The translations under genes were made by a program, and so were the position numbers. DNA of 63,031 nucleotides, the filler included, from Stramenopiles sp. TOSAG23-6 (Eukaryota): assembly GCA_900128565.1 (NCBI GenBank). It is 49 parts of 49 records of this genome, joined end to end, with 100 filler letters (N's around TTAATTAATTAA, not from the genome) between each part and the next. Parts side by side here need not be neighbours in the genome. Positions count along the whole stretch, not along the records: positions 1 to 1,203 come from LT639483.1; positions 1,304 to 2,505 come from LT639486.1; positions 2,606 to 3,807 come from LT639487.1; positions 3,908 to 5,108 come from LT639488.1; positions 5,209 to 6,409 come from LT639489.1; positions 6,510 to 7,710 come from LT639490.1; positions 7,811 to 9,010 come from LT639491.1; positions 9,111 to 10,310 come from LT639492.1; 41 more parts are not named here. One strand, 5' to 3'. Numbering within the stretch: the first letter of the stretch is position 1; every line of letters starts with the position of its first letter. Below are positions 1,145 through 63,031 of the stretch, in pieces. A model generated the notes under the pieces. The model saw nothing but the letters and a program-made list of their open reading frames with translations, was not told where the DNA came from and did not search any database.

Positions 1145-1203
1145 GTATGTTTTATTTTTTTTTCAAATTCGAATTTTTTTTTCGTACGAAATTTTGTACC
1201 TAA

Positions 1204-1303
1204 NNNNNNNNNNNNNNNNNNNNNNNNNNNNNNNNNNNNNNNNNNNNTTAATTAATTAANNNNNNNNNNNNNNNNNNNNNNNNNNNNNNNNNNNNNNNNN
1301 NNN
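1204..1303. other. Artificial contig linker (N-TTAATTAATTAA-N); first of ~48, recurring every ~1.28-1.30 kb
   Basis: Identical 12-mer with stops in all six frames flanked by ~44 N; spacing decreases steadily along the window, as expected for length-sorted contigs. Confidence 0.99.
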
Positions 1304-1356
1304 TTGTACCTAACAATTTTTTTAGATTTTTTTTGAAATATTTTTCCAAAATACAT

Positions 1357-2266
1357 GCCTGTTGTAGTACAATTACTGTTGCATCCTCATTCTTGGGTTC
1401 GTCTGGCATCTTCTCGGATAGTTGGTATGTTTGTATCAAGAACAAATCCTAAACAATTATCGGATAATTCAAATAATTGTATAACAGAAAAAAGTTTTTT
1501 GTGCAATCCAGGAATTCTCTTTGATCTAGCTAAATTTTCTTGCATGCAATTACAAAGTACAATATTGACTGAAAATCAAGCCCGACAAACAATTAAAAAT
1601 TTAGTGTACTGTGGTATTGCTATGTCATTTAATCCAACACTTTGTTTTACTGAAGAAATCAAAAAAGAGATATTTGAAAATGAATCTGATGAAATGTCAA
1701 AAACAATTCAAGTATCAGAAAGACCATTAAATTGGTTGTTTCATCGTATGGCAGGTTTGTGTCGCGAACAAAGAAGAATAAAACGTGACAAAAATGGTAA
1801 AGTAGCTCGTGATGCTGCAGAGCATGCTCTTCGAGTAGGTGATATTACAGGTATCAGACGTCGTGCAGTATTCAGATGGTTTGGTGCAATTACAGTGTCT
1901 TTGAATGTGAACAAAACTGCTTCTTATTTATCTGTTGTTTTACCCGTTTTATTACAAGCTCAAGCTAAAATTGAAGGAAGAGAAGCAAAACATGCCAAAC
2001 GATCTGAGCAAAGCACAGCAACATTAGCACAAGAAGTTCTTGCTTTATTATCAAAAACTCATGATTCAAAAGTTTATTTAGATGAGCATCATAAGTCTGT
2101 GTTGAAATATAAAGAAACGAAACGTGAACGAAAGAAAAAAAGAGCAATTGAAAAAATTGTGAATCCTATGGCACATACTCAAAGAAAACGTGCTAGACAT
2201 TTACATGCTAGAGCACAAAGAAAACTTAAACTCCAACAGCATAAAATGAAGGAAGGAAGAAGATAG
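1357..2266 (+). CDS. UTP20: UTP20-like (U3 snoRNP) C-terminal exon
   Basis: LLLHPHSWVRLASSRIVG, ARQTIKNLVY, RRRAVFRWFGA, basic tail; preceded by element 3' end CCAAAATACAT|. Confidence 0.8.
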
Positions 2267-2658
2267 AGATTGTAGAGATTATATATTGAATTTTCAACCG
2301 CATAAAATGAAGGAAGGAAGAAGATAGAGATTTTAGAGATTATATATTGAATTTTGTATGTAAAAGATATCGCCATATATATGAAAAGTGAAAAAGACAA
2401 AAGCAAAATATTAATAGAATTTTATTGTAAAAAGAGTAATAAAGATTATATACTCTATTGGTAAAATACTTTCAATTCTTCGTTTTCCTACTCGTTTCTT
2501 CATCTNNNNNNNNNNNNNNNNNNNNNNNNNNNNNNNNNNNNNNNNNNNNTTAATTAATTAANNNNNNNNNNNNNNNNNNNNNNNNNNNNNNNNNNNNNNN
2601 NNNNNTTGTACCTAACAATTTTTTTAGATTTTTTTTGAAATATTTTTCCAAAATACAT

Positions 2659-3568
2659 GCCTGTTGTAGTACAATTACTGTTGCATCCTCATTCTTGGGT
2701 TCGTCTGGCATCTTCTCGGATAGTTGGTATGTTTGTATCAAGAACAAATCCTAAACAATTATCGGATAATTCAAATAATTGTATAACAGAAAAAAGTTTT
2801 TTGTGCAATCCAGGAATTCTCTTTGATCTAGCTAAATTTTCTTGCATGCAATTACAAAGTACAATATTGACTGAAAATCAAGCCCGACAAACAATTAAAA
2901 ATTTAGTGTACTGTGGTATTGCTATGTCATTTAATCCAACACTTTGTTTTACTGAAGAAATCAAAAAAGAGATATTTGAAAATGAATCTGATGAAATGTC
3001 AAAAACAATTCAAGTATCAGAAAGACCATTAAATTGGTTGTTTCATCGTATGGCAGGTTTGTGTCGCGAACAAAGAAGAATAAAACGTGACAAAAATGGT
3101 AAAGTAGCTCGTGATGCTGCAGAGCATGCTCTTCGAGTAGGTGATATTACAGGTATCAGACGTCGTGCAGTATTCAGATGGTTTGGTGCAATTACAGTGT
3201 CTTTGAATGTGAACAAAACTGCTTCTTATTTATCTGTTGTTTTACCCGTTTTATTACAAGCTCAAGCTAAAATTGAAGGAAGAGAAGCAAAACATGCCAA
3301 ACGATCTGAGCAAAGCACAGCAACATTAGCACAAGAAGTTCTTGCTTTATTATCAAAAACTCATGATTCAAAAGTTTATTTAGATGAGCATCATAAGTCT
3401 GTGTTGAAATATAAAGAAACGAAACGTGAACGAAAGAAAAAAAGAGCAATTGAAAAAATTGTGAATCCTATGGCACATACTCAAAGAAAACGTGCTAGAC
3501 ATTTACATGCTAGAGCACAAAGAAAACTTAAACTCCAACAGCATAAAATGAAGGAAGGAAGAAGATAG
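2659..3568 (+). CDS. UTP20: Exact duplicate contig of the UTP20 fragment
   Basis: 2606-3807 is identical to 1304-2505. Confidence 0.8.
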
Positions 3569-3972: not shown

Positions 3973-5063
3973 ATAACCATTCTTCATCACTCTCCAGAGG
4001 CCTTAAATGACCGGGTGGTGTATTAACAATACAGTATTGTGGAGATTCAGAAGATTGTGATTTTCTTTCTGAAGGTTTTGTCTTTGTCGGTGTTTGGTGT
4101 ATGTTTTGCGTCGAATTGGAATTATCATTTTTTGTATTACATTCCGCACCGAACAATTTTTTTGTCGTTGTTGTAATTTCCATTGTATTTTTGTCACTTT
4201 CATCTGGCACACAATTTTTTTGAACACAATTTTCTGCATCTACTTTCATATTATCTACAGAATCACATAAATTTGGATTTGTAATATTATCTACAGACCC
4301 TAAGGAAACACATCCATTTCGTGAATTTGTAGAATGTTGTGTGAGATGTAAATTCTCATTTGATGTATGAGCAGATTTTGTGTCATTTGATGTATGAGCA
4401 GATTTTGTGTCACGAATTCGCTTTTTAGGTGAGCCAAACATCCGACGAAATCGTTCTCGAAGTTCCTGTTCTAATTTCACAGCGGCATCTATTGCTGCAG
4501 CAGATAACTTTGGTTTTTGAGAATGATGTATTTTGGAAAAATATTTCAAAAAAAATCTACAACAATTTGTTAGGTACAAATTTTTTTTTTTTTTACGGAA
4601 AATAAAAAAAAAAAATAAATTCGATTTTTTTTTTACCGTAAAAAAAAAAACATAAAACATAAAACATAAAACATACATCAAACAAATAGGTCGTTGTCGG
4701 TCGTAGATACCCACAGAGGTTTTGATGGCTCTTGGTAGTAAACTGTTTTGATGATAAAAGAGGATTACCAACAGAAAAAATATGATCAGGATTTCCCGTG
4801 ATATTGACTGCATTGGTAAAATTAGAAGAGGATTTACATGCCACATTTTTTGAGTGTGTATTTCCTGAAAAAGAATGTTGATACGTAGGCAAAGGCACCA
4901 CGAGAGTGTCCTTTACAGTTTTGTTTTTATTTCGATGTCGGCGATTTTTCTCATTTTTTTTACTTTTATTTGTTGAACGGCGAACATTTCGTGTATTTTT
5001 TCGTACTCTTGATGAAGTATTGCTACGACGCCTTTGTTGTGGTAGACCTTGGTCGATGCTATC
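3973..5063 (-). CDS. Hypothetical low-complexity protein, 2 exons (GT-AT intron 4526-4676)
   Basis: ttt gat|GTATGT..AATACAT|cat tct caa joins two open frames in phase 0. Confidence 0.6.
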
Positions 5064-5287
5064 CTGTATTTTGGAAAAATATTTCAAAAAAAAAAAAAAA
5101 ATTGTTAGNNNNNNNNNNNNNNNNNNNNNNNNNNNNNNNNNNNNNNNNNNNNTTAATTAATTAANNNNNNNNNNNNNNNNNNNNNNNNNNNNNNNNNNNN
5201 NNNNNNNNTTCGTACGAAATTTTGTACCTAACAATTTTTTTTTTTTTTTGGTAAAAAAATTTTTTGAAATATTTTTTCAAAATTCAT

Positions 5288-6561: not shown

Positions 6562-7550
6562 GTACGATGTAAAGAATTACTTGATATTATGATACGTGTG
6601 AAGAATGCAAAATCATTTTCTGATCAAGAAAATTATAGTATTGAAAATGCGTATATTCAATGCGTCCCTCAGCAAAACTCTGAGAGAATTAAAATACAAC
6701 TTCCTATTATACATCAATTTATTGAATATCTAATTTTTGATGTATTAAAATCGACAAAAGTTGTCGTTACATACAAAGTTTTAAAGAAATTACCTTGGGA
6801 TTCTGATTCAACGATAATGTATGTTTTATTTTTTTGAAATATTTTTTTGAAATATTTTTTTTTTTTAATAGTAAATTTTGTACCTAACAAATTTTTTTAG
6901 AATTTTTTTGAAATATTTTTCCAAAATATATGCCTTTTCTAGTAAATACCTTTTTGAATGCAACGCGTGGTGAATATAAAAAATTAGCATGTCGGTGTTT
7001 ATTATTACAATATTGTACAAATAATTCTTTTGTTCCGCTGAGTAATATGTATGTTTTATTTTTTTTTAATATTTTTTTTTTTAAATTTTTCATAGTAAAA
7101 TTTGTACCTAACAAATTTTCAAAATTTTTTTTTATTTTTTTTTTAAATATTTTTTTTTAAATTTTTTTTAAATTTTTTTTTATTTTTTTTTAATTTTTTT
7201 TCCAAAAAATTTTCATAGTAAAATTTGTACCTAACAAATTTTCAAAATTGTTTTGAAATATTTTTCCAAAATGCATGGTAGTTCGTTGTCTTGATCAATT
7301 ATTAGAGTCGATTCATTTTGGTTTACAAAATCCAAATTATTGTAATCAACAAAAACAAATTGGTGAAATTTTAATGCTGGGATGTTTATATGAATATGCT
7401 ATGGTTGATGCAAAGACTATATTTGATGTATTATTTGAAATTATTGAAATTGGACACGAAATCCCAGAAGAAATGTTAAAAGAGATACAAGCAAAAAAAG
7501 ATGTCAACTTGAAAGATTTTGTCAGTATGAACACAAGAAAATCTCATCCT
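6562..7550 (+). CDS. UPF2: Nonsense-mediated decay factor UPF2 (MIF4G region), 3 exons
   Basis: IENAYIQC.P, HQFIEYLIF, VLKKLPW, LDQLLESIHFGL..NQQKQI..LGCLYEYAMVDAKTIFDVLF follow the UPF2 order. Confidence 0.85.
6819..6931 (+). mobile_element. Introner-family intron, GT-AT (TAT acceptor) in UPF2
   Basis: ata at|GTATGT..TGTACCTAAC..CCAAAATATAT|g cct ttt. Confidence 0.85.
7049..7276 (+). mobile_element. Introner-family intron, GT-AT, internally duplicated (two branch motifs) in UPF2
   Basis: aat at|GTATGT..CCAAAATGCAT|g gta gtt cgt. Confidence 0.8.
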
Positions 7551-8342
7551 GTATGTTTTATTTTTTTTTTTACAAAAAAATCGAATTTATTTATTTTTTT
7601 TTTTACAAAAAAATCGAATTTATTTTTTTTTTTTGGTAAAATTTTTTTTTTCATACGAAATTTTGTACCTAACAATTTTTTTTTTTTTGGTAAATTTTGA
7701 AATATTTTTCNNNNNNNNNNNNNNNNNNNNNNNNNNNNNNNNNNNNNNNNNNNNTTAATTAATTAANNNNNNNNNNNNNNNNNNNNNNNNNNNNNNNNNN
7801 NNNNNNNNNNTACAATTATGCTCAATGTTTTGTATGTATGCTGCTTACTTTGACTTTCGACTGAAACTTTATCACTTATACTTCGACTTGTGTGTGTGTG
7901 TAAACACGTGCCATGCATGGTGTAAAAGAACACGAAATATTGTCTTTTTTTTCAAAATCACGAAATCTCTTACAAATGAAAAAAATCAAGAACTTTCTTC
8001 ATAAAAAAAACATTTTGTGTTGTAACTTGTAACAGATTTTACTGCGTATTTCCTTTTACGTAAGAATTTGTCATACTTTTCAACAAATCTTTCTTGACAT
8101 TCAAAAAACAACTATACCATAATTTCATCTATATTATTCGCCTTAAAAGAGTATAGATACATTGTATACTATACTATTACGCTGCATTTAACATTTGTAT
8201 ACTATATTGGATCACAAAAGTAGTACAAAACGAGTGTCTTTGTCCACACGTCATTTCAAATTCTTCCTTGACAGTTTACCTCTCGGTCTTTTTCTACACG
8301 ACGCAACGAACACTGTACGACACTCATTGAAAACATATAAGC

Positions 8343-9010
8343 ATGTCTTGCTCGAGTACTAAACGAACATGTAAGCGCAGAGACACAGATTTAATGAAAT
8401 TGATGATGTCTGACTACGAAGTTCATCTAACTGATCATGACAGCTCTGCTGATTTTTTCGTCAAACTTTCCGGACCTAATGAAACAGCGTACGAAGGTGG
8501 AACTTGGAAGGTTCACGTCCAACTTCCAATTGATTATCCGTATAAATCACCATCTATTGCCTTTGATAACAAACTGTACCATCCAAATGTTGATGAAATC
8601 ACAGGTTCAGTTTGCCTTGACGTCATCAACCAAACATGGTCGCCCATGTATGTTGTTGTATTTTGAGTTTTTTTTGAGTTTTTTTTGAGTTTTTTTTTTC
8701 GTAGGTAATTTTGTACCTAAGAACTTTTTTTTTTTTTTAAATTTTTTTACGAAAAAAAAAAAATGAAATTTTTTTTTACAAAACTGTTTTTTTCATACAA
8801 TTTTCTATATCTAACAAAAAAATGTTTGAATGTTTTGATATTTTTTTTTCTACAGGTTTGATTTAATTAATGTGTTTAATGTGTTTTTACCACAATTATT
8901 AAGATATCCAAACCCTACAGATCCTCTTAATGGTGAAGCAGCTGCATTATTATTAAAAAATCCAAAATTATATAATGAAAAAGTAAAGGATTACGTGTAC
9001 GTCTCTCAAA
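8343..9010 (+). CDS. UBE2H: Ubiquitin-conjugating enzyme E2 (UBE2H/UBC8), intron 8648-8855
   Basis: [71 protein letters not shown]. Confidence 0.95.
8648..8855 (+). mobile_element. Introner-related intron with canonical GT-AG ends
   Basis: ccc at|GTATGT..TTTGTACCTAAG..TTCTACAG|g ttt gat gives conserved SPMFDL. Confidence 0.85.
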
Positions 9011-17135: not shown

Positions 17136-17242
17136 GTATGTTTTATTTTTTTTAATTTCGAATTTATTTTTTTTTCGTACGAAATTTTGTACCTAACAAT
17201 TTTTTTATAATTTTTTTTTTGAAATATTTTTCCAGAATACAT

Positions 17243-23362: not shown

Positions 23363-24555
23363 TTGAGTGTATGTGTTGTAGAGAAGGGTGCTGAAGTTGG
23401 AGCTCATATTCTTTCTGGGAATGTGTTTGAGCCTCGAGCCCTCGATGAATTACTGCCCTCGTGGCGTGAAGATGAAAGTTGCCCCGTGAAAACAGAAGTC
23501 AAAGAAGACCATTTTTTATTCCTTCAAGATGAAAAGAAGTCTATAAAAGTACCAAATTTTATTCATCCAAAAGCAATTCACAACGATGGAAATTATATCA
23601 TTAGTCTGGGTCAACTTTGCCGTTGGTTAGGCACACAGTGCGAAGAAGCAGGAGTAGAAATATACCCTGGATTCTCCGCCTCTGAAGTACTCTATCGCCC
23701 AGATGGTGGTGTGGCTGGTATAGCTACTGCTGATATGGGCGTTAACAAAGATGGATCTCCAAAAAATTTTTGAAATATTTTTTTCACAATACATGTAGTG
23801 AAACTGTAATGAAAAAGTTTGGTCTTCGAGATGCTCCGCCTCACCTTGCTAATGAGGATAAGAAGGAAGCTGATCCTCAATCTTACGCCCTGGGTGTTAA
23901 GGAAGTTTGGCAAATCCCTGAAGAAAAATGCAAACCAGGAACAGTTGTACATACGTGGGGATGGCCATTGACTGATATGAAAAACCCCAAAGATAAGACT
24001 TACGGAGGTGCTTTTCTGTATCATATGGAACCAAATCTAGTACTATGTGGTTTCGTTACCGGATTAGATTACGCAAATCCATATATATCACCTTACAAAA
24101 CGTTTCAAGAATGGAAAAGGCATCCAAAAATAAGTGAATATTTAGACGTTGATGGTGCAGAATGTATTCAATATGGAGCTAGAGTTTTGAATGAAGGTGG
24201 TTATTACGCTTGTCCGAAACTTACGTTCCCTGGAGGCATGTATGTTTTATTTTTTTTTCAATTTCGAATTTTTTTTTTTTCGTACGAAATTTTGTACCTA
24301 ATAATTTTTTTTTTTGAAATATTTTTCCAAAATACATGTTACTCGGTTGTTCCGCCGGTTTCTTAAATGCAATGAAAATAAAAGGTAGTCATACAGCCCT
24401 CAAATCTGGAATGGTAGCAGCTGAAGCAACTTTTGCGGGTTTATTAGGATTAGATAGTACCCTGAAAACGCCTGCACCTGAAATATCCGTATGGGACTAT
24501 CAAATGTCAGATGAATCAGGTGAGCCAGCAATAAAATCTGATGAAAGTTCGATAG
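23363..24555 (+). CDS. ETFDH: ETF-ubiquinone oxidoreductase (partial; apparent deletion near 23770; GT-AT intron 24240-24337)
   Basis: VEKGAEVGAHILSGNVFEPRAL, GVEIYPGF, YALGVKEVW, LDYANPYISPY, YGARVLNEGG..PKLTFPGG|MLLGCSAGFLN..KIKGSHTALKSG. Confidence 0.97.
24240..24337 (+). mobile_element. Introner-family intron, GT-AT, contains no AG at all
   Basis: ggc at|GTATGTTTT..TTCGAA..CGTACGAAATTTTGTACCTAAT..CCAAAATACAT|g tta ctc ggt; removal gives FPGGMLLGC, colinear with ETFDH FPGGLLIGC. Confidence 0.93.
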
Positions 24556-41526: not shown

Positions 41527-42591
41527 ATTTTTATAACATTGACAATTGCATCTAGAACTTCATTGGCTGCCCAAGGATTGACATTTACAGCACCATTGAG
41601 AACTCGGCTACATATCTTTTGAAATAATATTTTTTTTTTTCATACAACTTTTGTTAGGTCGATATTAAAAAAAAGTTTAAAATTTTTTTTTTTTTTAAAT
41701 TAGGGTTAGGGGTAAAAAATTCAATTTTGAAAACGTACATCCAGAGAATTGACTTACAATGACTACTCCATTAGTATTAGTATGCACATATTCTAATGGT
41801 AATAAATTAAAAGATTCACGCACAGATGTTGTGATAAGCGCATCAGCTGCTAAATAATAAGAAATTCTTTCTTCCATCTCGAGAGAATTCACTTCAATAA
41901 ATTCAATTGTACATAAAGTATGAAAAAATATTTCAAAAAAAATCTAAAAAATTCTGTTAGGTACAAAATTTCGTATGAAAATTAAAAAAAAAATTCAATA
42001 CATTTAATTGTACCTGGGCAAATATCATTTGTTTCCTTTTGTAATTTGAGTATTTCAGTTCTTGTTTCACCAATACGTTTTTTATTTGCATCAATTCCAG
42101 ACCTAGTTGTTAGACCAATTTGTACCAAAGCTACTTTTTCATGTAACTGAGGGTATGTATTGTGAATTTTTTTTTTTTTTTTTTTTTTAAAAAAAAATCG
42201 TTAGGTACAAAATTTCGTATGAAAAAAAATTTTTTTTTTTTAAAATAATAATAATTGTACAAACATACATTGTTCTAACATTGATTTGAATGCTAATAAT
42301 TTAAATGGAATTCCTCTAATTCTTGTTAATTCATCAATGCCTAAAAATAAAAACTTTTTCTTATGTCTTTGTAAAACTTCCTCAACATTATCCTGTGGTT
42401 TTGAATGTATGTATTTATTCAATATGGAAGGTTCAATTCCTGGATGGGATATGAATTGTGAAAAAAAAAATGTCAAAATTTTTTCAAAAAATTTGTTAGG
42501 TACAAAATTTACTACAAAAAAAAAAAAATTTGAAATTCATGATGAAAATCTACACCGTAATTGTGACGTCACGACCTTGCATGTGAACCTT
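41527..42591 (-). CDS. TPS: Trehalose-6-phosphate synthase (GT20), 5 exons; four GT-AT introns
   Basis: V|SHPGI, LGIDEL..RGIPFKLLAF..LEQ|YPQLHEKVALVQI, AADALITTSVRESFNLLPLEY, VSQFSG|CSRVLNGAVNVNPW; introns 42451-42553, 42155-42268, 41913-42001(or 42013), 41612-41738. Confidence 0.92.
41612..41738 (-). mobile_element. Introner-family intron, GT-AT; neighbouring AGs are out of frame
   Basis: gga t|GTACGT..CCTAAC..AAAAGATAT|gt agc cga; AG 4 nt upstream or 4 nt downstream breaks the frame. Confidence 0.88.
42155..42268 (-). mobile_element. Introner-family intron, GT-AT
   Basis: caa t|GTATGT..CATACGAAATTTTGTACCTAAC..CACAATACAT|ac cct cag. Confidence 0.9.
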
Positions 42592-44028: not shown

Positions 44029-45094
44029 GCTCAAAGTACCTGTCCAATCTCCGATTATTTCAAAGACTGGAATTGACTTTATATCTGCAATGAAAAATAC
44101 GGCACAATTAAGTTTTGATTTGTTTTTGAATGAAATGGAAAATGATCCAAAATCAACAAATAGTGAAAAAAATGACAAAACTGAAAAAAATGAGCATTAT
44201 CAGAGTTTTCTATTATATTTAGTAAATATCAAATTACTTTGGTTCTTTGCATCTCTGCCATTGCATGTATCTTTTATTTTTTTCAATTTTTTTCCTAAAT
44301 TTGTTTTTCGTACGAAATTCCGTACCTAACAAATTTTACAATTTTTTTTTTTTTCACAATACATGGTGGTTCCTTTTCTATAATGATTGAAAAAGTACTG
44401 ACTTATGCAAGAACAATTTTATTGTATATTGTACTTTCACCAAAAGATGATATTTTGGATAATTTTAATAATTTGAATATACCAGAAGATATATTTTCGT
44501 TTATTTGTAATTTAGCTCAATTATGTTTTGATAATGAATTTGTATACAAAGTAACCAATGATGAAATGAGAATGCTTGAAGTTCTTAAAAAACAGATACA
44601 ATTAGAAGTAGAAGCAAATGAGAAAAAAACGAAAAAAACCTTGACATTAGCAAAAATATTGGTACTTGGTTCTTACATACCTTTACATATCCTTCCTTTC
44701 GCATCACAATTAGAATTTTCGTATAAATATTTGGTACAAAATATGAGAGAATCTCCTAATATTCGTGAAAATACCGAAATATTTCAATCGATGAATATGT
44801 ATGTTTTATTTTTTTTCAATTTCTAATTTATTTTTTTTTTTTATAAAAATTTTGTACCTAACAAATTTTCAAAAATTTTTTTTTGAAATATTTTTCCAAA
44901 ATACATCATAAATGAACAATTACTATATCCCAGAATTCAAGCCAAAATAAAAAAGTCAATTCAAACAGAACGAAATACAACGAAATTATTTTTCGCGGAA
45001 GAAAATGAGAATAAAAAAAACAAAAGTATTTCTGAAATTGTTCGCCAGCAGTATGAAGAGAACCCATATCCAAGATGGAAATCACTCTATGGAT
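44029..45094 (+). CDS. TPR/class-I SAM-methyltransferase-type protein; GT-AT introns 44267-44364, 44799-44906
   Basis: IEKVLTYAR, LAQLCFDNEFVY, SEIVRQQYEENPYPRW after splicing. Confidence 0.75.
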
Positions 45095-51681: not shown

Positions 51682-51737
51682 GTATGAAATTTTGTACCTA
51701 ACAAATTTTTTTTGTATGAATTTTTTTTACAATATAT

Positions 51738-52789
51738 GAACGTCAATTGCAGATTATTAATTCTAAATTAATGAAGCAATTATCTCAAGCGGAACTAGAT
51801 GCGTCATCACAAAGACAAAGTCGTGAACGTTTCAATAGGGTATCAAATATATCAATGATGAATCATAGAACGAATAGCAGAGAGCATGATGACCAATATA
51901 CACGAAATATCAATGATAGATTTAATGAGTTTGACACTGCGTCAATACACCCTAACCCTAATATGGACAATGCAACAAGTAATAGAAGTCAAATGAGTAG
52001 TAGTACGTATGATAGTATAATAGACACAAATGATAAGAAACACATTCAATCTGAAACGAAAACAGAACAAAATTCAAAACATTCAAAAAATGTAAAAAAT
52101 GTAAAACATTCAAAACATTCTGAAACATTTTCGAAACCAATCACAGAAACAAATTCTCAAGTAGCAGCACTAAAATCACAATTTAAAGCACAAATTGATC
52201 GATGGAATGGTATGTATGTTTTATTTTTTTGAAAATTTGAATTTTTTTTTTTTTGAAAATTATGTACCTAACAAATTTTTTTAGATTTTTTTTGAAATAT
52301 TTTTCCAAAATACATTCTTGAATCTGACGAAGATGACAATGAGACTTTTGAAGCAAGTAACCCTAACCCTAATAACAATGAGAACTTTGAAGCAAGTAAC
52401 CCTAACCCTAATGACAATGAGACATTTGAAGCATTTACTACATCAAAAACATATGACACGTGGCACCAGGACCATGACGATCATAGCACAGACAGACCTG
52501 TTTCATCTGATACACAACAATCTACATCGGTATCGTTATCAAGACCAACAACTCAACAGGAAAAAAACAAAATAAAAACAAAAAATAGTAAAAAAAATAA
52601 TAAAAAAAATATAAACCCTAACCCTAGCTATACAAACAAAAGTAAAAAAAAAGAAAGTCTTGATGATATGATGAAAACAGGACAAAATGATGCTGCAGAA
52701 GCAAGTATTGATAGAATAAATCAATTTTTACAAAGAAAAAAACGTGATGCAATAGAAAAAAAATTAGAACGGGACAAAAACTTACGAAT
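51738..52789 (+). CDS. Hypothetical coiled-coil/low-complexity protein (GT-AT intron 52214-52315)
   Basis: ggt at|GTATGT..TACAT|t ctt gaa; NPNP inserts. Confidence 0.55.
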
Positions 52790-52928: not shown

Positions 52929-53294
52929 AATTGGAAAACAAATAATCTAGAAAATCGACTAAAACACACAAAGCGATGTACTCGATGGTTGTCCGTTTTC
53001 TTTTCTTTACTTTTTTGTTTTATTTCATTTTTTAAGATTTTTTTATTTTTTTTTTTTTTGGTTTCGTACGAAATTTTGTACCTAACATAAAAAAAATTAA
53101 ATTTCAAAAAAAAATATTATTCACAATATTTGTATGAAGCTGCTCAATGTATGGAAAAACGAGTTATTCATTTAGAAAAAGATATCAAATCATATATCGA
53201 TGTCGCTGATATCGAATTAAATCAACTCTTACACGATGATGACGTCATCGAGGCAAATAAACTTCAATTTGAGTTGAAAAAAAAAATGAAGTAA
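52929..53294 (+). CDS. Hypothetical C-terminus; probable GT-TT intron 52991-53131
   Basis: tgg tt|GTCCGT..CGTACGAAATTTTGTACCTAAC..CACAATATTT|g tat gaa gives the longest frame. Confidence 0.5.
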
Positions 53295-54008: not shown

Positions 54009-54308
54009 ATGTATTGTCAAAAAATATTTTTTTTTTTTTTTGGTTAAAAAAAAAAGAGTTGGGTAAAAAATTTCCTTAAAAAAAAAAAATTCGTTTTTTT
54101 TTAAAANNNNNNNNNNNNNNNNNNNNNNNNNNNNNNNNNNNNNNNNNNNNTTAATTAATTAANNNNNNNNNNNNNNNNNNNNNNNNNNNNNNNNNNNNNN
54201 NNNNNNTTTTATTTTTTTTTTTACAAAAAAATCGAATTTTTTTTTTATAGTAAATTTTGTACCTAAGGATTTTTAGTTTTTTTTTTTGAAATATTTTCCA
54301 AAATACAG

Positions 54309-55383
54309 TCTTTAGCAGATTGTGGCAATCAATATCTTCTCGCCCTAGGTATTAAAAAATCAGAAAAATTACCCACTGGTGTTCACGTTTGTTTATAGTA
54401 TTCATTTTTTGTATTTTTTGTATTTTTTTTATTTTTTCTATTTTTTCTATTTTTTGTATTTTTTTTAATTAGGGTTAGGGTTTAATATCAAATACGAAAA
54501 TTCCATTCCTACTGAAACAANACCTAATGTTTTTTTTTNTAACTANAAAATATTGTTACACAATATATCCATATGGTTATGCTAATGAAAGATACATTTT
54601 TGGTCTTATGTCAGGAGTTGGAATGTACGTTTTCATCATTTTTTTTTTTTTTTTTTAAATATTTTTTTTCGTACGAAATTTTNTACCNAANAANTTTTTT
54701 TAGATTTTTTTAGAATTTTTCAAACTACATCTTCTTCTTAGGTTGCGGGGTCACTTGTTACCATGGACTCCATTTATTATTCAATCCACAACCTCTGGAC
54801 AACCTTCCATTAGGAATAGGTATCATGGCAACTGCAGGAGCCATTGAAGGATACACTTTACACGTATGTTGAATTTGTATTATTATTTTGAAAAAAAAAT
54901 TGAAATTTTTTTTGAAATTTTTTTTTGAAATTTTTTTTTAGACGTCATTTAAAATAGCAAAAAAAAAAAAAAAACTANTTTTTTTTTTTTTTTGAAATAC
55001 GTTTTCACAATATTTGTCGCCATTCAAGCCGTTCGTAATGCTGCAAGAGAAACAAGAATGACATTTGGAGATTATATTCGAAAAGGCCCAGATCCTGTAC
55101 GTTTTTTTTTTTTTTTTTTACTTTTTTTTCAAATTCGAATTTTTTTTTTTCGTACGAAATTTTGTACCTAACAATTTTTNTTTTTTTTTTNCGGNAAAAA
55201 AAAATTTTGAAATATTTTTCTACAATACATGTATCNACGGCTGTATTATTAGAGGATGGAGCTGCTGTAACTGGCGTGTTTATTGCTGGATCTTGTATGG
55301 CAATGACCCACATAACTGGTAACTTACTATGGGATGCTGTAGGAACACTATTTGTTGGTGGTTTGCTAGGTGGTGTTGGTATA
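54309..55383 (+). CDS. SLC30A9: Cation diffusion facilitator ZnT9/SLC30A9-like, 5 exons; no internal intron ends in AG
   Basis: SLADCGNQ.LLALG..H|PYGY.NERY..L.SGVG|IFFLG.G..YHG..EG.TLH|VA..DP|VSTAVLLED.AAV.G; introns 54387-54568 GT-AT, 54625-54730 GT-AT, 54864-55015 GT-TT, 55097-55230 GT-AT. Confidence 0.93.
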
Positions 55384-56759: not shown

Positions 56760-57032
56760 TATCAGAATCCGCTTGTAGAAGACGGGAACTCATTATGAGA
56801 GTCAAAGATAAATTTAAATTGTTTGGTAGACAAATTGTTTTACATAATGCACAAGTCAGAGCGTTGAATGATGGTGAAGCATCGCTACAACATTTAAAAT
56901 TTCAACTGTACTTGAAATTCATTGAATGTGTCACAATTCCATCTGAAGCTGCAAGTAGAATTATTGAAACTCTGGAATATCCACCATGTAGTTCATCTGG
57001 AGGTTTTTTAGGTATTGTACTGCAAGTATGTT

Positions 57033-57063
<31 letters not shown>

Positions 57064-57880
57064 TTTTTTTAAATATTTTTTCATAGTGCAAGGTGGCTGG
57101 TTTCGTTCGGACGAATGCACAGCGCCTGCATATCTAAATAATCTAAATAATGAAAGTAAAACAAGTCCTACTCAAATAGATTGTTATTGTTTTAAATACG
57201 AAGCTTCTGAATATTCGAAAAAAAAATTTTGGTCAAAAAAAAAAAAAAAGGCAAAATATCTACAGCATTAGTTCCTAAATCTCTCGCTCTCAAAGGCATA
57301 CATGATTTATGTACATGTGATGACAATTATATAGTCGATGATATTACTGGAAATTGTGTACTTCCTCACCTTTTTTGTGAAAAAAAATGTAAAAAAACAG
57401 GCTATATAAGTACAAAACTCGTATGTGAATGTCTTCGTCCTCCCGAGATTGAGCAAAACATTAGATGTAAACCACCAGCTACTTATAATGTATGTTTTTT
57501 TTTTCAAACTTTTTTGAAATATTTTTTCAAACTTTTTCTTATAGTAAATTTTGTACCTAAGAAAAAAAAATTTTTACGGAAAAAAAAAATTTTGAAATAT
57601 TTTTCCAAAATACATAAAGAAATGGGTCATTGTCTATGTGAAATGATAAACAATACAGAGTTATCTTACCAATATGATGTAGATGGAAATAGAGAATTAC
57701 AATGCATATGTAATCATCCATATGAATTAGATATAAGCAGTGGTAAATGCATATGTAAGCCAGAATATGAAGGAAGATGTAACCCAAAGCCAAAGCCAAA
57801 CGGAACATGTGAATTTCCAAGTATATTAAGTACGGATATATTTGGTAATACAACAAATTATTGTGTTTGTTCTTATCCAT
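56760..57880 (+). CDS. EGF-like Cys-rich protein; introns 57026-57091 (GT-AA) and 57490-57615 (GT-AT)
   Basis: CxC..Y..D..G.C repeats; tat aat|GTATGT..TACAT|aaa gaa. Confidence 0.6.
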
Positions 57881-58046: not shown

Positions 58047-59209
58047 ATGCCAAAACGAAATGCAAATTCACCTTTTGAAACTATTCTGGAGGAAGTAGGT
58101 GTCGATTTGACACACTCAGAAGACAAGGAGAACAATAATGATGAAAATGATACCGAAATTATCGTCCCTAAAGGTGTACAATGTCGCGATCCTTTAAAGA
58201 TGAGTGGTGAATTGGAGACGTTATTTTCGAGTGGACGATATCGTGCTAGTGATTTCATGCAAGGTCTTGAAAGTTTTTTGAGCGATGAAACGAACCTTCG
58301 TAAATGTTTAATGCCAATGATTCTGTCTCAACACAAAAGACAACGGTTCAATACAACCTGACTTGATACAACATATTCTTATTAGCTTAGTTCCAGAATA
58401 TATGGACAATAATAATGATTGTAGTCGTTTGGTAGATAACATGACTAAATTATTACTTTCACAACTCAAATGGCTCGAGTTCATTAGTGATAGTTCGGCT
58501 CTGACGGATACTTTACTTGAATGTTTACAAGTTTGTCCATCAAAGGTACAAATTGAAATTGTTGGGTTTCTTCCTGAAATCCTCGATGATAGTCACCAAG
58601 AGAGAATCGTGATGGGTCTTCAGGAACTCATGGAAAATGATATTTCTATATACGTTTTCAAAATTGAATGTAATTTTTTTTTTCATACGAAATTTTGTAC
58701 CTAACAAAACATTTTTACTAAAAAAAAATATTTCTTTACAAAACATGGTCGTTCATGTGTTAGAATGTTTTAGCAACCTTCAACTCACACCAAAACTCCT
58801 AGAATCAGTCATGAAGTGGGTATTAGAAACATTAGCTTCAACAAGAATGGAAGACTTACCTGTCATTTTACGATTTTTAATGCAAAGTGTCCCTCCTGAT
58901 GTGTCCGTTGCAAAGCAAGTCGTACTACAACTTCGTACACAACTTCGCCTGTCGAATAAACCAGATATAAATGAAGCAGCTCAAGAAGTCCTGTTAATGG
59001 AAGCATTATCTAATGGACTTCATTTTAGAAGTGATATTGCTGAAATATTTTTGGAGGTCATTTCAGACGCAAAACAAGCAATTGTCTTTGATTTATGGAT
59101 TCTTTTATTACTATCTGAAATCGAACTTTGGCGTAAAAATGCAATTATTCTTTTTCGAAAAAAAATTTCATCTGGGCAATTTACACATCTGCTGTTAAGG
59201 GATTGTTTT
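58047..59209 (+). CDS. FANCD2: Fanconi anemia D2 N-terminal region (frame break ~58340; intron 58650-58746)
   Basis: LLSQLKWLE, VQIEIVGFLPEILDDSHQ, VLECFSNLQL, EDLPVILRFLMQS, LRTQL. Confidence 0.9.
58650..58746 (+). mobile_element. Introner-family intron with AT-AT ends; no AG inside
   Basis: tct at|ATACGTTTTC..CATACGAAATTTTGTACCTAAC..CAAAACAT|g gtc gtt. Confidence 0.82.
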
Positions 59210-59896: not shown

Positions 59897-60484
59897 ATAT
59901 GTTTTGCAACAAATGAAGATAATGATAAAAACCAAGAAAGTTGGGATGATGATGAACTTGGTGAATCGCTAGGTCACATGCAGGTTGTCGAAGCATTTCG
60001 ATTTTTCAGTCGAGAGCACACTGAAGTACTTTGTTTTTCATCAACAAAAAAACTTTGTCGGAGTCTAAAAGATAATCCTGACGTAGGGGGTAACCTGTTG
60101 AAGATCCAAAAAGACAGAAACAACGTAGAAGATCTTTTACGAACAGTTTTTCGTGAACTGGCAGAGAAATCGACATTTGATAAACTTCTTGCAACTGTTG
60201 ATGAAGATAAAAAATGTGAGCAAGATAGAGAGAATCTAGTTCTTTTGGAAAAGGAAACAACACGAGCTGTACAAGACTTAGAAAAAGAATTGGAGGAGGA
60301 AAAATACGAACATCAAGAAGAAGTCAAACGCCAAAATGATTTGGTAGAAACCCTTAAGCAAAAACTAAGTAGAATGGAGAGTACATCAGCTATGCAAATG
60401 GAATATAGACGTGCAGAATCAATGTCAAAGCTAGCATCAAAACAACGGACAGGTAATCAAGTCTTAAAAGATCATGAAAGAAAG
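59897..60484 (+). CDS. IQCG: IQCG/DRC9-like flagellar coiled-coil protein fragment
   Basis: STKKLCRSLKDNPDV..NL.KIQ.DR followed by a long coiled coil. Confidence 0.65.
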
Positions 60485-60584
60485 NNNNNNNNNNNNNNNN
60501 NNNNNNNNNNNNNNNNNNNNNNNNNNNNTTAATTAATTAANNNNNNNNNNNNNNNNNNNNNNNNNNNNNNNNNNNNNNNNNNNN

Positions 60585-61758
60585 CCGCCACAAGTCTTAG
60601 AGCATGTGCTATATTCACCATAACCTCCGACGCAGTCGACCGGTCGAGGAACAGTGCAGCACATTCTATTAGAACAAGTATTCTCAGGACATCGAATAGT
60701 CTTGGGTTTAGCATGCAAGCTATTTACAATATCTTGCGAACAATCAAATGGCTTCGGATTTGATGGGCTTGCTTCAGTATTAGCACACGTGTGAAGGACA
60801 ACGGTACAGCAGATGGAACCATCACATGCCCCTTTTCCGTTATCTGCACACTTGACATCTTTTGGAGTTGCAGTCAAATCATGGTCATGATTCTTGCAAG
60901 AGTAAGGAGTCGGAGTTCCATCGCCATCGATGTCGTTACATGTTCTTACAGTGGATGGTGTCACCGTACAACATGTTGTAGCATTACAATTTTCAGTACA
61001 TTGAACGGTTTCGGGTTGTGCATCCAACTCTTTTGCTTCATTTGCACAGTCGAAGGCTACTGGATTTGCTGTACATTCTTTACCGGAGCAAGTTATTGCA
61101 CTAGGCGTTAAACTTATTGCCTTTTCCTCATTAGAACAGTCAAATGGAGTTTTCAAGTCTCCTCCTAGCGCATTTCTATCAGCACATGTCCTAGGTATTG
61201 GCGTGACTGTACAGCAAAGTGACTCCAAACAAGTCTCTTCTTGTGCGCATTTGATCTTTTCAGGTTCATTAGATAGATTCTTTGCATTATTAGAACAGTC
61301 GAAAGCGTTTGAAATACCGTTCGCTGCAGGATCAGCACATGTTCTTTGGAACCGAGTGCAGCATTCCTTTGCTGTACATTGAAGCGCGTCTTCTGTACAT
61401 TTAATATCGCTTGGATTTTTATCAAGTAGTTTCTTACCACTTGTAAGTGTGGCACAATCAAAAGCTGTACCATCAGATTTACCATCTGCATCACGATCGC
61501 TACAAGTTCGTTGTGGTGGTGTAACAGTACAACATAAGTCCATTGTACAGCGCTTGTTATTGCATCGAACTTTTTCTGGTTCTGGATGCAACGTCTTTGG
61601 GTGGCCAGCACAGTCGACTGCATTATCGCTATCTGTGTTACCAATGGCATCTGGATCCAAACAGGTACGACGAAGTCGAGTACAACATTCAGCGGCGGTA
61701 CAGTTAAGCGCAGAGCAGATTTTGGATGTCGGTTTTGTCATCAGCGTCCTTGTTTCTT
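60585..61758 (-). CDS. Extracellular Cys-rich repeat protein ending in a TSP1-like domain
   Basis: ~45-aa RTC..FDC..C..C..CCT repeats; PVDCVGGYGEYSTCSKTCG. Confidence 0.8.
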
Positions 61759-61979
61759 NNNNNNNNNNNNNNNNNNNNNNNNNNNNNNNNNNNNNNNNNN
61801 NNTTAATTAATTAANNNNNNNNNNNNNNNNNNNNNNNNNNNNNNNNNNNNNNNNNNNNTACGAAAAAATTCGAAAACGAATCTTGTCCAATTTCAAATGT
61901 AGTTTTTTTTTTTTAATTTTTTTTTTTAAATTTTTGTATCTAAAATATATATATATTCAATATATATTCTACAACACAT

Positions 61980-62941
61980 CTATTTTACATGAGGAACGAG
62001 ATGTAAGAAGTCTTGATGTTCAAATAAGACCAAAAAATCAAATTCATTTTGAATCATTCACATTTCACGAAATGCATACAACAATTTCATTTTGTTCAAG
62101 TAAAAAATCTAAAAAATCTTCAGAAAAAATTCAACATTTAAAAAATAATCAAAATTGTAGTCACGCGAGTCATAAAACATCAGTCTTAGGTGTGCTTTCA
62201 AGGATTACGGATGCAAACATTAAACTTGAAGGTATCTATATGATTCATGTCTTAATCACGTCAAATAGATTATTAGAAGTTGTAAACCAACATTATCATA
62301 GCCAATTTAAAAAACAAATGAGTCGACTTCTTGCAAGTTTAGAAGTATTAGGGAATCCAAGTGCTTTACTATCTAGTTTACATACTGGAGCAAGTGATTT
62401 CATAAAGGAACCGATGAGAGGCGCTGCTCAAAGTGGACTTGGTTTAGCACGAGGTGTTGCGAAAGGTACAGCCAGTTTAGCTCGTCATGTTTCTGGAGGT
62501 CTATCACGTTTTGGATCAGATTTAACTGGGAATTTATCCAATGCATTATCTCATGTATCCTTTGATGAGGATTACATTGCAATTCATTCAGGTCGATCTC
62601 GAGCCTCAAATATTGGAGATGGGCTTGTTATTGGTGCTAAAAATCTCGCTAGTGGTTTGTTTCAAGGTGTTACTGGTGTAGTTACTCAACCATATAAAGG
62701 AGCAATGAAAGAAGGTGGTGTAGGATTTGTTAAAGGTGTTGGAAAAGGTTTAATTGGTCTCCCAATCAAATCACTTGCTGGTGCATCTGGAATGGTTTCA
62801 AATGCTTTAGATGGAGTTTCAGCGTCAAGTAAAAATTCACAAGACAAAAAAAGAAAAAATTTGGCTCAAACAGAACAAATTCGACGATGTAGAATGGTAT
62901 ATGGTCCAAATAGATCTTTAAAAACATATTCAAATGAAGAT
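61980..62941 (+). CDS. VPS13: VPS13-like C-terminal (ATG_C) region
   Basis: LASLEVLGNP..L.TG..DF..EP..GA, SFDEDY, GVTGVVTQP..GA..EG..GF.KGVGKGLIGL. Confidence 0.93.
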
Positions 62942-63031
62942 GTATGTTTTATTTTTTTTTGATTTTTTTTTTTTTGATTTTTTTTTTCCGTACGAAATTT
63001 TGTACCTAACGATTTTTTTTTTTTTTTGAAT

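What the first reader, a model, noticed from the sequence alone, without database searches (positions are those of the whole stretch)
1145..63031. One introner-like family with short terminal inverted repeats and a 2-bp duplication that supplies the acceptor
Seen: more than 50 whole or truncated copies of GTATGTTTT-(T)n-TTCGAA-(T)n-CGTACGAAATTTTGTACCTAAC-(T)n-GAAATATTTTTCCAAAATAC-NN in unrelated genes, all sense to the host, in all three phases. The ends GTAT(G)TTTT / AAAATAC are inverted repeats. The last two exon bases usually equal the last two intron bases (AT..AT mostly; TT..TT at 52991 and 45823; AA..AA at 57026; AG..AG at 749). Known: introners are non-autonomous DNA transposons whose target-site duplication can provide a splice site. 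Inference: this element prefers AT targets, carries its own donor and branch point, and is excised without a scar because the duplicated dinucleotide serves as acceptor even when it is not AG.
Basis: partly seen in the sequence, partly recalled or inferred. Interest (0 to 1): 0.9.

Follow-up and report, generated by a model that had tools for sequence, protein, structure and literature searches.

The report
Repeated intron family ending in AT
An AT-rich marine protist carries many copies of one roughly 100-base intron that starts with the usual GT but ends in AT instead of the near-universal AG, which matters for how introns spread and how their ends are recognised.

Summary
The family is real. 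The core 22-mer has 39 matches against 0 expected. nhmmer gives 64 hits, 56 of them in unique contigs.

The window is 49 short contigs joined by linkers, and 4 are exact duplicates.

I curated 36 complete introns:
- 34 start with GT.
- 33 end in AT, 2 in AG and 1 in TT.
- 25 follow an exon ending in AT.

Removing exactly GT...AT keeps the reading frame in 24 of 28 decidable cases. It is also colinear with homologues at 5 junctions. Non-AG acceptors are therefore well supported.

Nine of the 11 introns whose exon does not end in AT still end in AT. The exon/intron match (25 of 36) does not exceed chance given the two marginal frequencies (23.1 expected, P=0.10). AT is the family's own acceptor, in fixed register after a conserved 3' box.

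A mobile, introner-like origin is plausible:
- Introns of unrelated genes are up to 89% identical.
- Every well-scoring copy with a clear context is sense.
- The best-conserved copies all sit at AT|.
- One site is uninterrupted in the closest relative.

Mobility is not proven. I found no transposase and no polymorphism, and the inverted ends show no covariation.

The parts
24240..24337 (+). Reference full copy in the ETF-QO gene: exon..GGCAT|GTATGTTTT..TACCTAAT..CCAAAATACAT|GTTA
   Evidence: HMM score 55.1. Exon 1 aligns up to residue 349 of 2gmh_A and exon 2 from residue 351, leaving one residue for the split codon AT|G.
33963..34069 (-). Full copy, AT|GT..AT|, phase 0
   Evidence: Best HMM score, 62.5. 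Frame-consistent with 130 and 88 open codons on the two sides.
44799..44906 (+). Full copy, AT|GT..AT|, phase 2
   Evidence: Score 56.2; frame-consistent.
52214..52315 (+). Full copy, AT|GT..AT|, phase 2; a TAG 31 nt before the end is bypassed
   Evidence: Score 53.1; 164 and 170 open codons on the two sides.
17136..17242 (+). Full copy; identical copies in duplicate contigs at 18430-18536, 19724-19830 and 21018-21124. The junction forms an ATG.
   Evidence: Score 53.6. The frame test is inconsistent here, possibly because this is a 5' UTR/start-codon junction.
57490..57615 (+). Full copy, AT|GT..AT|, phase 0
   Evidence: Score 46.1; 93 and 94 open codons.
35664..35765 (-). Full copy in a K+ channel gene, just after the pore TTIGYGD motif; AT|GT..AT|
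   Evidence: Score 42.8. The upstream exon matches K+ channel structures. The downstream exon found no PDB match.
4526..4676 (-). Full copy with an expanded 5' part, AT|GT..AT|
   Evidence: Score 40.9; 144 and 191 open codons.
6819..6931 (+). Full copy ending ATAT|
   Evidence: Score 40.6; frame-consistent.
7049..7276 (+). Copy with an internal duplication of the branch module; ends GCAT|
   Evidence: Score 37.8; frame-consistent.
27611..27898 (+). Longest copy (288 nt), with a tandem internal duplication; AT|GT..ACAT|
   Evidence: Frame-inconsistent as assembled.
28061..28183 (+). Copy, AT|GT..ACAT|; frame-inconsistent as assembled
54387..54568 (+). Divergent intron of the ZnT9-like gene: AC|GTTTGT..ATATAT|CC. 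It has no boundary repeat and contains a TTAGGG repeat.
   Evidence: Colinear with P0002 residues 46|47. Repeat lengths are 0 and 0.
54625..54730 (+). AT|GTACGT..CTACAT| in the same gene
   Evidence: Colinear with P0002 G64|I65.
54864..55015 (+). AC|GTATGT..ATATTT| in the same gene; ends in TT at the usual register of the 3' box
   Evidence: Colinear with P0002 109|110. An alternative reading shifted by 2 nt is not excluded.
55097..55230 (+). CT|GTACGT..ATACAT|GTA: a well-conserved copy whose exon does not end in AT
   Evidence: Score 35.8. The junction P|V is colinear, and Pro is conserved in P0001 and P0002.
54207..54308 (+). 3' part of a copy ending ..CCAAAATACAG| (AG in place of AT), just before codons SLAD
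32861..32972 (+). GT|GTACGT..ATACAT|GG
   Evidence: Frame-consistent, with 104 and 34 open codons.
749..839 (+). Divergent relative with canonical ends, AG|GTACGT..ATCAG|, in THOC5
8648..8855 (+). AT|GTATGT..CTACAG|: exon ends AT but acceptor is AG
57026..57091 (+).
   Evidence: Placed only by frame and by the register of the 3' box.
52991..53129 (+). TT|GTCCGT..CAATAT|TT; the end could also be 53131 (TT)
   Evidence: Undecidable in the frame test.
41913..42013 (-). AG|GTACAA..CTTTAT|GTACAATT: the intron start repeats the first 8 nt of exon 2
35416..35533 (-). Copy with ATACGT in place of GTACGT at the donor; ends AAAT|
   Evidence: Borders not verified.
58650..58746 (+). Second copy with ATACGT at the donor; ends ACAT|
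   Evidence: Borders not verified.
7551..7710 (+). Young-looking 5' part with the exon ending in CT; the 3' end is lost at the contig end
5842..5962 (-). Further complete member, AT|GTACGG..ACAT|. Other complete members are at 26938-27031(+), 32552-32691(+), 33286-33392(-), 34375-34463(-), 34648-34824(-), 41612-41738(-), 42155-42268(-), 42451-42553(-), 44267-44364(+), 49868-49987(+), 50884-50972(+) and 51317-51424(+).
   Evidence: Table.
1145..1203 (+). 5' part cut by a contig end. Other contig-end fragments, as nhmmer hits, are at 1303-1356(+), 3908-3972(-), 5065-5108(-), 5208-5286(+), 6357-6409(-), 28306-28384(+), 33544-33597(-), 33697-33786(-), 36073-36141(-), 40126-40197(+), 45093-45132(+), 46383-46435(-), 49515-49617(+), 51675-51732(+) and 62982-63016(+).

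Best explanation
What it is: a high-copy family of short spliceosomal-type introns (median 112 nt) in an AT-rich marine protist.

Each copy carries all its own signals:
- a donor GTAYGT followed by Ts;
- palindromic middle motifs (AAATTCGAATTT and TTTCGTACGAAA);
- a branch-like box TTTTGTACCTAAC, about 45 nt from the 3' end;
- a T-rich tract;
- a conserved 3' box TYCAMAATAYAT, whose last two bases are the acceptor (AT in 33 of 36, AG in 2).

Splicing removes GT...AT exactly. It passes over AG dinucleotides that lie between the branch box and the AT.

Shown:
- the family exists and has these borders;
- the frame and homologue colinearity hold across the junctions;
- the acceptor is independent of the upstream exon's last two bases.

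Inferred:
- The family arose by repeated insertion (introner-like) into transcribed genes at sites reading YAT|G. The exon-side AT is therefore a target or 'proto-splice-site' preference, which decays in older copies.
- The intron-side AT is part of the element and is held by splicing.

Not resolved here: whether insertion was DNA transposition with a 2-bp AT duplication or reverse splicing.
For: Family and borders:
- 39 core matches against 0 expected; 56 hits in unique contigs.
- Of 36 complete introns, 34 start GT and 33 end AT.

Exact excision:
- 24 of 28 decidable introns are frame-consistent, against 1/3 by chance (p=1.6e-8).
- In ETF-QO, exon 1 ends at residue 349 of 2gmh_A and exon 2 starts at 351.
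- Four junctions of the ZnT9-like gene are colinear with P0002.

AG bypassed: 10 of 29 AT-ending introns have an AG between the branch box and the acceptor.

Acceptor independent of the exon:
- 9 of 11 introns with non-AT exon ends still end in AT.

Descent rather than signal constraint alone:
- Full-length identity between introns of unrelated genes reaches 0.89, and 0.95 for 3' halves.
- Modules are duplicated internally.
- 16 of 90 contig ends lie in family hits.
- 3232 contigs of a seawater DNA run and 619-720 contigs of each RNA run match the stretch. The summed depth concentrates on the element, not on the exons.

Insertion-site signal:
- Introns behind an AT exon end score higher against the family profile (mean 31.3 against 15.7, p=0.004).

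Recent gain at one site:
- The closest relative's genomic ORF, P0020 (80% identity by tblastn), reads FPGGMLLGCSAGF straight through the 24240 site.
- The same relative is interrupted at places where this genome is not.
Against: - No junction-spanning transcript was obtained. The one read-laying run covered the exons of contig 22 poorly.
- 4 of 28 introns are frame-inconsistent as assembled. The assembly is poor: it has single Ns, duplicate contigs, and about 20 ETF-QO codons missing at 23765-23784.
- For AT/AT introns, GT..AT cannot be told from AT..AC using mRNA alone. Only 55097-55230 argues for GT..AT, through its conserved Pro.
- One colinear intron ends in TT (54864-55015), and two copies have ATACGT at the donor.
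- There is no direct proof of mobility: no polymorphism, no DNA-level empty site, no intergenic or antisense copy and no autonomous element.
- The closest full-length pairs still differ by 11% or more.
Confidence: 0.6

Rival explanations
1. The element is a non-autonomous DNA transposon (MITE-like) with ends GTAT..ATAC. It inserts at AT with a 2-bp duplication, and the right-hand copy of the duplication is the acceptor.
For: - 24 of 36 introns are AT|GT..AT|.
- The best-conserved complete copies all sit at AT|.
- The uninterrupted site in the relative must read ..AT G.. because it encodes Met. Filled and empty sites therefore differ as element plus one AT.
- There are suggestive rare matches: AG/AG at 749 and AA/AA at 57026, each with a 5-nt repeat on the exon-end/intron-end side. 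The start of the intron at 41913-42013 repeats the first 8 nt of exon 2.
Against: - There is no excess of matches beyond the marginals (25 against 23.1, P=0.10).
- 9 of 11 non-AT exon ends pair with AT. These include CT/AT in a well-conserved copy and AC/AT, both fixed by colinearity.
- The copy at 54207-54308 ends in AG, although the exon before it must end in a His codon (CAY).
- The inverted ends are 4 perfect bases. They show no covariation (257 paired cells against 253.8 in shuffles).
- No antisense or intergenic full copy and no transposase were found in the window.
- The longer boundary repeats are not significant against mismatched pairs.
Confidence: 0.22
2. No mobility. These are old introns that look alike because this organism demands very strict intron signals, or because gene conversion homogenises them.
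For: - Nearly all introns in the window follow the same plan, including very divergent ones.
- Strict signals are known in other small genomes. A note from another window reports this for Ostreococcus; I did not check it.
Against: - Similarity extends to stretches with no known signal role and to subfamily-specific variants and duplicated modules.
- The 24240 intron is absent from the closest relative, and that relative's interruptions lie elsewhere.
- The exon-side AT is tied to the best-conserved copies.
Confidence: 0.1
3. The introns are not removed by the major spliceosome. Either they are minor (U12-like) introns, or they are excised through pairing of their ends, as proposed for euglenid and diplonemid nonconventional introns.
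For: - The donor GTATGTTTT shares 7 of 9 bases with the U12 donor consensus GTATCCTTT (consensus recalled, not from a call).
- U12 introns tolerate non-AG ends (recalled).
- AU|GUAU..AUACAU| can pair across the 5' junction with a 2-nt stagger (my own reading of the sequence).
Against: - The branch-like box lies a median of 45 nt from the 3' end. That is far for U12 (recalled range).
- The predicted folds are no better than shuffles, with z from -1.48 to +0.23 in 8 copies.
- There is no covariation between the ends.
- The donor and branch box resemble yeast-type major signals (recalled).
Confidence: 0.06

Closest known systems
Introners / introner-like elements (Micromonas, Aureococcus, dinoflagellates, fungi), as surveyed in PMC12130899 (passages read) and bioRxiv 10.1101/2022.06.06.494994 (search listing only)
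   Same: Many similar short introns in unrelated genes, carrying their own splice signals. The surveys describe target duplications that can contribute a splice site, and classify most introners as TIR DNA transposons.
   Different: - The acceptor here is AT, not AG.
- The survey's curation step names only AG and AC as 3' sites and discards families with unconfirmed unusual sites (passage read). A family like this one could therefore have been dropped.
- No transposase, clear TIR or demonstrable TSD was found here.
Amoebophrya introner elements among non-canonical introns (PMC7789003, passages read)
   Same: Repeated introns in a marine protist with non-canonical borders, short direct repeats overlapping the exon/intron border, and inverted repeats at the ends. 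A MITE-like origin has been discussed for them.
   Different: - In Amoebophrya the inverted repeat is 8-20 nt and forms a hairpin, the direct repeat is 3-5 nt, and the splice dinucleotides show no clear signature.
- Here the donor GT and acceptor AT are nearly fixed, the repeat is 2 nt, and the inverted ends are 4 perfect bases with no stable fold.
Non-canonical introns of Fritillaria borealis (known to me from citations in PMC7789003 and PMC12621601 and from recall; paper not read)
   Same: Most introns are non-canonical, are thought to derive from MITE insertions, and are removed by a U2-type spliceosome.
   Different: The splice sites there are highly divergent (an AG-A(N) pattern as cited). 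Here there is a single conserved GT...AT pattern with a yeast-like donor.
Euglenid and hemistasiid diplonemid nonconventional introns (PMC12621601, abstract and passages read)
   Same: Borders are not GT-AG, short direct repeats sit at the borders, and a MITE origin has been suggested.
   Different: Those have variable borders and extensive pairing of their ends, and their removal may not involve the spliceosome. Here the spliceosomal-type donor and branch box are conserved and there is no significant structure.
AT-AC and U12-type introns
   Same: The 3' end is not AG. 16 of the 36 introns could formally be read as AT..AC by shifting both borders 2 nt.
   Different: - The U12 donor and branch consensus are not matched.
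- The GT start (34 of 36) and AT end (33 of 36) are more consistent across the family than an AT start (25 of 36) and an AC end.
- The conserved Pro at 55096|55231 favours GT..AT.

Membership tests
Introner (intron-generating mobile element) | Many similar intron copies in unrelated genes | tested here: met
   56 hits in 45 unique contigs. Full-length identity reaches 0.89 between introns of different genes.
Introner (intron-generating mobile element) | Copies are spliced out precisely | tested here: met
   The frame test gives 24 of 28. Five junctions are colinear with homologues. No junction-spanning transcript was seen.
Introner (intron-generating mobile element) | Recent gain: empty sites in relatives or polymorphism | tested here: inconclusive
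   One site (24240) is uninterrupted in the closest relative's ORF, P0020, at the protein level. That relative is interrupted elsewhere. No DNA of the relative was available and there was no population test.
Introner (intron-generating mobile element) | Transposon hallmarks: terminal inverted repeats and a target-site duplication | tested here: inconclusive
   The ends GTAT/ATAC show no covariation. AT/AT occurs in 24 of 36, but there is no excess match.
Introner (intron-generating mobile element) | Autonomous partner encoding a transposase or reverse transcriptase | not testable with these tools
   No whole genome is held. Ten ORFs of the window show none.
Amoebophrya-type introner elements | 8-20 nt inverted repeat forming a hairpin that joins the intron ends | tested here: not met
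   z-scores range from -1.48 to +0.23 in 8 copies. Only 4 perfect terminal pairs exist.
Amoebophrya-type introner elements | Variable, non-conserved splice dinucleotides | tested here: not met
   GT in 34 of 36 and AT in 33 of 36.
U12-type (minor) introns | Donor RTATCCTT and a branch box TCCTTAAC close to the 3' end (consensus recalled) | tested here: not met
   The donor is GTATGTTTT. The box TACCTAAC lies a median of 45 nt from the end.
U12-type (minor) introns | Minor snRNAs present | not testable with these tools
   Rfam finds only a 5S rRNA and a tRNA in the window.
Tc1/mariner-type MITE | TA target-site duplication (recalled) | tested here: not met
   The flanking dinucleotide is AT, not TA.

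The most novel reading that the evidence does not exclude
In this lineage the default acceptor has shifted from AG to AT, and it is read at a fixed distance after a conserved 3' box. The shift went together with the invasion of one introner family, which now supplies most of the genome's introns. Both the exon end and the intron end changed from the canonical ..AG| to ..AT|. That would point to a change in a shared recognition component, for example U1 or a second-step factor.
Probability: 0.3. Interest if true: 0.85.

Novelty: new variant of a known kind. Interest (0 to 1): 0.62.

Why it matters
**Acceptor recognition.** Almost all known spliceosomal introns end in AG. The known exceptions are rare classes or have no fixed ends at all. 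A large intron family that keeps a textbook donor and branch box, ends in AT, and skips available AGs would be a natural experiment on how the 3' splice site is chosen.

**Annotation.** Gene finders and introner surveys that accept only AG or AC acceptors would mis-annotate such a genome and miss such a family.

**Intron spread.** If the family is mobile, it offers a case for asking how new introns spread in marine protists. It also lets one ask whether a short duplication, or none, accompanies insertion.

Tried and rejected
- **Whole genome.** None is held. No genome-wide census, snRNA search or transposase search was possible.
- **Metagenome scan.** A scan with a 17-mer of the core gave 64 loci.
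- **Viral contigs.** The 22-mer core has 0 exact matches.
- **Read laying.**
Exon bins had little or no cover, so no splice junction could be read.
  - The listed joints link repeat copies and are not introns.
  - One poly-A RNA contig (X9, record 31) begins to match at 27897, two bases before exon 2, with 29 of its letters unplaced. That is compatible with splicing at ACAT| but shows nothing by itself.
- **Presence/absence in DNA runs.** This could not be judged.
- **Same-organism proteins.** Two database searches found none. The best hits were 65% identical for the ZnT9-like exon and 82% over part of the query for the ETF-QO exon.
- **Naming the relative.** The cluster look-up gave no names for P0020 and P0041.
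- **ESM Atlas.** It gave only the family name ETF-QO and no useful taxon.
- **K+ channel junction (35664-35765).** The upstream exon matches channel structures. The 43-aa downstream exon matched nothing, so colinearity was not shown.
- **Earlier notes of this scan.** There was nothing on this genome or on look-alike sequence. One note on Ostreococcus introns in another genome is only an analogy.
- **Literature.** Searches found no paper describing a lineage or intron family with GT-AT borders or these motifs. Supplements are closed, so tables of splice-site classes in the introner surveys could not be checked.
- **Rejected readings.**
  - A 4-bp ATGT duplication: only 1 of the 11 best-scoring copies has GT at the start of exon 2 (listing).
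  - A duplication that includes position -3: most of the best-scoring copies mismatch there (listing).
  - Ciliate-type TA..TA DNA excision: it would add 2 residues and break colinearity with 2gmh.

Full report
**What the window is.** The 63,031 bases are not one locus. They are 49 contigs of 1,173-1,203 bases, sorted by length and joined by N44-TTAATTAATTAA-N44 linkers. Contig 3 is identical to contig 2, and contigs 15-17 are identical to contig 14, which leaves 45 unique contigs (53,447 bases). GC content is 24-35%. Public runs that hold the sequence are seawater metagenomes and metatranscriptomes, plus small DNA runs of a coded 'organism A', so this is a marine protist. I did not determine its taxon. 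An AP2-domain protein is present. The only named ETF-QO match is a partial dinoflagellate protein at 68% identity over 43% of the query, which is weak evidence.

The assembly is poor. It contains single Ns. About 20 codons of ETF-QO are missing at 23765-23784, next to an intron 3' piece that has no donor. And 16 of 90 contig ends fall inside family hits.

From coordinates I curated 36 complete introns, and later added one more at 57026-57091. Among the 36:
- The median length is 112 nt, with a range of 89-288.
- 34 begin with GT. Two begin ATACGT.
- 33 end in AT, 2 in AG and 1 in TT.
- The upstream exon ends in AT in 25. AT makes up 9% of dinucleotides in long ORFs (p=1.7e-18).
- The first base of the downstream exon is G in 20.
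- Phases 0, 1 and 2 hold 15, 8 and 13 introns.

Every well-scoring hit whose flanks allow a strand call is sense to the neighbouring coding frame. The only two 'opposite' calls are weak hits of 12.4 and 17.5 bits. I read the 17.5-bit one as a product of the palindromic core.

**Are they really removed at GT...AT?** I took the longest open frames upstream and downstream independently. On that basis, 24 of 28 decidable introns are consistent with removing exactly the curated interval. Four are not and 8 are undecidable. Chance is one third (p=1.6e-8).

- **ETF-QO (24240-24337).** Exon 1 aligns to pig ETF-QO up to residue 349 (..FPGG) and exon 2 from residue 351. That leaves one residue for the split codon AT|G.
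- **ZnT9-like gene of contig 43.** Four successive junctions are colinear, without gaps, with a 65%-identical homologue, P0002:
  - AC|GTTTGT..ATATAT| at 54387-54568;
  - AT|GTACGT..CTACAT| at 54625-54730;
  - AC|GTATGT..ATATTT| at 54864-55015;
  - CT|GTACGT..ATACAT| at 55097-55230.
- The first of these four has no repeat at its borders, so its GT...AT reading is unambiguous if the proteins are colinear.
- In the last, reading the borders 2 nt to the left would turn a Pro that is conserved in both homologues into His.
- An AG lies between the branch box and the AT acceptor in 10 of 29 AT-ending introns, and it is passed over.

Non-AG acceptors are therefore well supported. What is missing is a junction-spanning transcript. 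My one read-laying run, on contig 22, gave almost no exon cover.

**GT..AT or AT..AC?** For AT|GT..AT| introns the mRNA cannot tell GT..AT from AT..AC. Across the family, a GT start (34 of 36) and an AT end (33 of 36) are much more regular than an AT start (25 of 36) and an AC end. The bases before the terminal AT vary among AC, AT, GC, CC, TC and AA (listing). The intron ends in a fixed register after a conserved box TYCAMAAT. The rare ends ACAG|, ATTT| and GCAA| fall in that same register.

- Exon end and intron end are identical in 25 of 36 introns (24 AT/AT and 1 AG/AG). Shuffling the intron ends among introns gives 23.1 matches on average (P=0.10).
- The 2x2 Fisher test of AT against non-AT gives P=0.22.
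- Of the 11 introns behind a non-AT exon end, 9 still end in AT. Their exon ends are TT, GT, GT, AG, GA, AG, TT, AC and CT.
- The copy at 54207-54308 ends in AG. The exon before it must end with the His codon of the HSLAD motif, so that exon end is not AG.
TT..TT at 52991 is out of frame with the upstream ATG. The copy at 45823 lies after a stop codon and has no donor.

- If ambiguous ends are placed by register, 57026 is AA/AA with a 5-nt repeat (TGCAA), and 52991 may be TT/TT.
- The intron at 749 is AG/AG with a 5-nt repeat.
- The intron at 41913-42013 begins with the first 8 nt of exon 2.

A search for such repeats in mismatched donor/acceptor pairs gives 10 of 12 matches in 2.4% of pairs and 11 of 12 in 0.3%. 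The few long repeats seen are therefore not significant. A strict AT-target, 2-bp duplication remains indistinguishable from an element that ends in AT.

**What the exon-side AT may be.** Introns behind an AT exon end score higher against the family profile (mean 31.3 against 15.7, Mann-Whitney p=0.004). All introns scoring above 36 bits sit at AT|. So AT marks the well-conserved, presumably younger copies and is partly lost in divergent ones. That fits a property of the insertion site better than a requirement for splicing. The mRNA junction consensus is YAT|G.

**Inverted ends and structure.** The ends are complementary over GTAT/ATAC, followed by a T-run against an A-run. If the exon AT is included, AU|GUAU can pair with AUACAU|. 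Three results speak against a functional helix:
- Eight copies fold no better than shuffled sequence, with z from -1.48 to +0.23.
- Across 36 introns, the paired cells number 257 against 253.8 in shuffles (286 of 2000 shuffles reach the observed value).
- Divergent copies show no compensating changes.

The inverted repeat is therefore a weak argument for a transposon, and a hairpin-based excision is unlikely.

**Mobile or not?**

*For descent and spread:*
- Identity between introns of unrelated genes reaches 0.89 over the full length and 0.95 over the 3' half. The median is 0.63 in this low-complexity setting.
- There are subfamily variants and internally duplicated modules.
- Contigs break inside the element.
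- In a seawater DNA run, 3,232 contigs match contig 22 at 90% or more. Summed depth is in the tens of thousands on the element bins and at most a few hundred on exon bins. The three RNA runs show the same pattern. The tool warns that other organisms may contribute, so this is not a copy number.

*The relative.* The closest relative in the protein collection is an NCBI genomic contig of 21.6 kb with two ORFs, P0041 and P0020.
- P0020 is 80% identical by tblastn.
- It reads ..FPGGMLLGCSAGF.. straight through the 24240 site.
- The relative's frame breaks after ..PLTDM and after ..QMEDE, where this genome is continuous.
- Intron positions in this gene therefore differ between the two relatives. 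The uninterrupted site encodes Met, so it must contain AT followed by G.

*Against proof of mobility:* I have no DNA-level empty site, no polymorphism, no antisense or intergenic full copy and no transposase among ten ORFs. No whole genome is held for a wider search.

**Comparison with what is known.**
- **Introners.** They are established, and most are classified as TIR transposons (PMC12130899, passages read). That survey's curation step names only AG and AC as 3' sites, so a GT-AT family could have been dropped.
- **Amoebophrya introner elements.** These combine non-canonical borders, 3-5 nt direct repeats across the borders and 8-20 nt inverted repeats (PMC7789003, passages read). They are the closest in concept, but they lack fixed dinucleotides and form hairpins.
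- **Euglenid and hemistasiid nonconventional introns.** They have variable borders and strong pairing of their ends (PMC12621601, passages read).
- **Literature searches.** Searches for GT-AT introns or for these motifs found nothing comparable. Supplements were closed.

**Verdict.** The introner-like reading is plausible but unproven. The proposed role of a duplicated dinucleotide as acceptor is not supported. The more striking fact is that a large, regular intron family uses AT as its acceptor.

Noticed in passing
window, 17 sites, e.g. 22510-22521, 37972-37989, 52361-52372, 41227-41238, 54469-54480: Two-unit telomere-like repeats (CCCTAACCCTAA) occur 17 times against 0 expected. Some lie inside coding frames, where they read as Asn-Pro repeats (NPNPN) in several unrelated ORFs. 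Others lie inside introns, for example 41227 and 54469.
   Followed up: partly
window 23765-23795 (contig 19): The ETF-QO gene lacks about 20 codons that are present in the relative's ORF P0041. At that place there is an intron 3' box with no donor. This looks like an assembly collapse between two similar introns.
   Followed up: partly
window 2606-3807 and 18186-21967: Exact duplicate contigs: contig 3 equals contig 2, and contigs 15-17 equal contig 14. This is redundancy in the assembly and inflates repeat counts.
   Followed up: yes
window 25520-25570 (contig 20) and 51038-51115 (contig 40): Fragments resembling the palindromic middle of the element (AAATTCGAA....CGTACGAAATTTGGTAC) lie within apparently coding sequence. 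They produce weak matches on the opposite strand.
   Followed up: no
window 35416-35533 (-) and 58650-58746 (+): Two family members have ATACGT where the others have GTACGT at the donor. An alternative in-frame reading uses a GT four bases further in.
   Followed up: partly
window 36967-37085 (-) and 48804-48899 (-): A 5S rRNA gene, and a tRNA gene that spans 96 bases for a 71-position model, so it probably has an intron. Contig 44 encodes a Sen54-like tRNA-splicing endonuclease subunit.
   Followed up: no
window 37132-37414 (-): A long tract of degenerate short repeats of the TTACA/TTTACA kind lies next to the 5S gene.
   Followed up: no
window 41913-42013 (-) and 32552-32691 (+): The first 8-10 bases of these introns repeat the start of the downstream exon: GTACAATT at 41913-42013, and a 10-of-12 match at 32552-32691. 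This is not significant against mismatched pairs, but it is worth checking genome-wide.
   Followed up: partly
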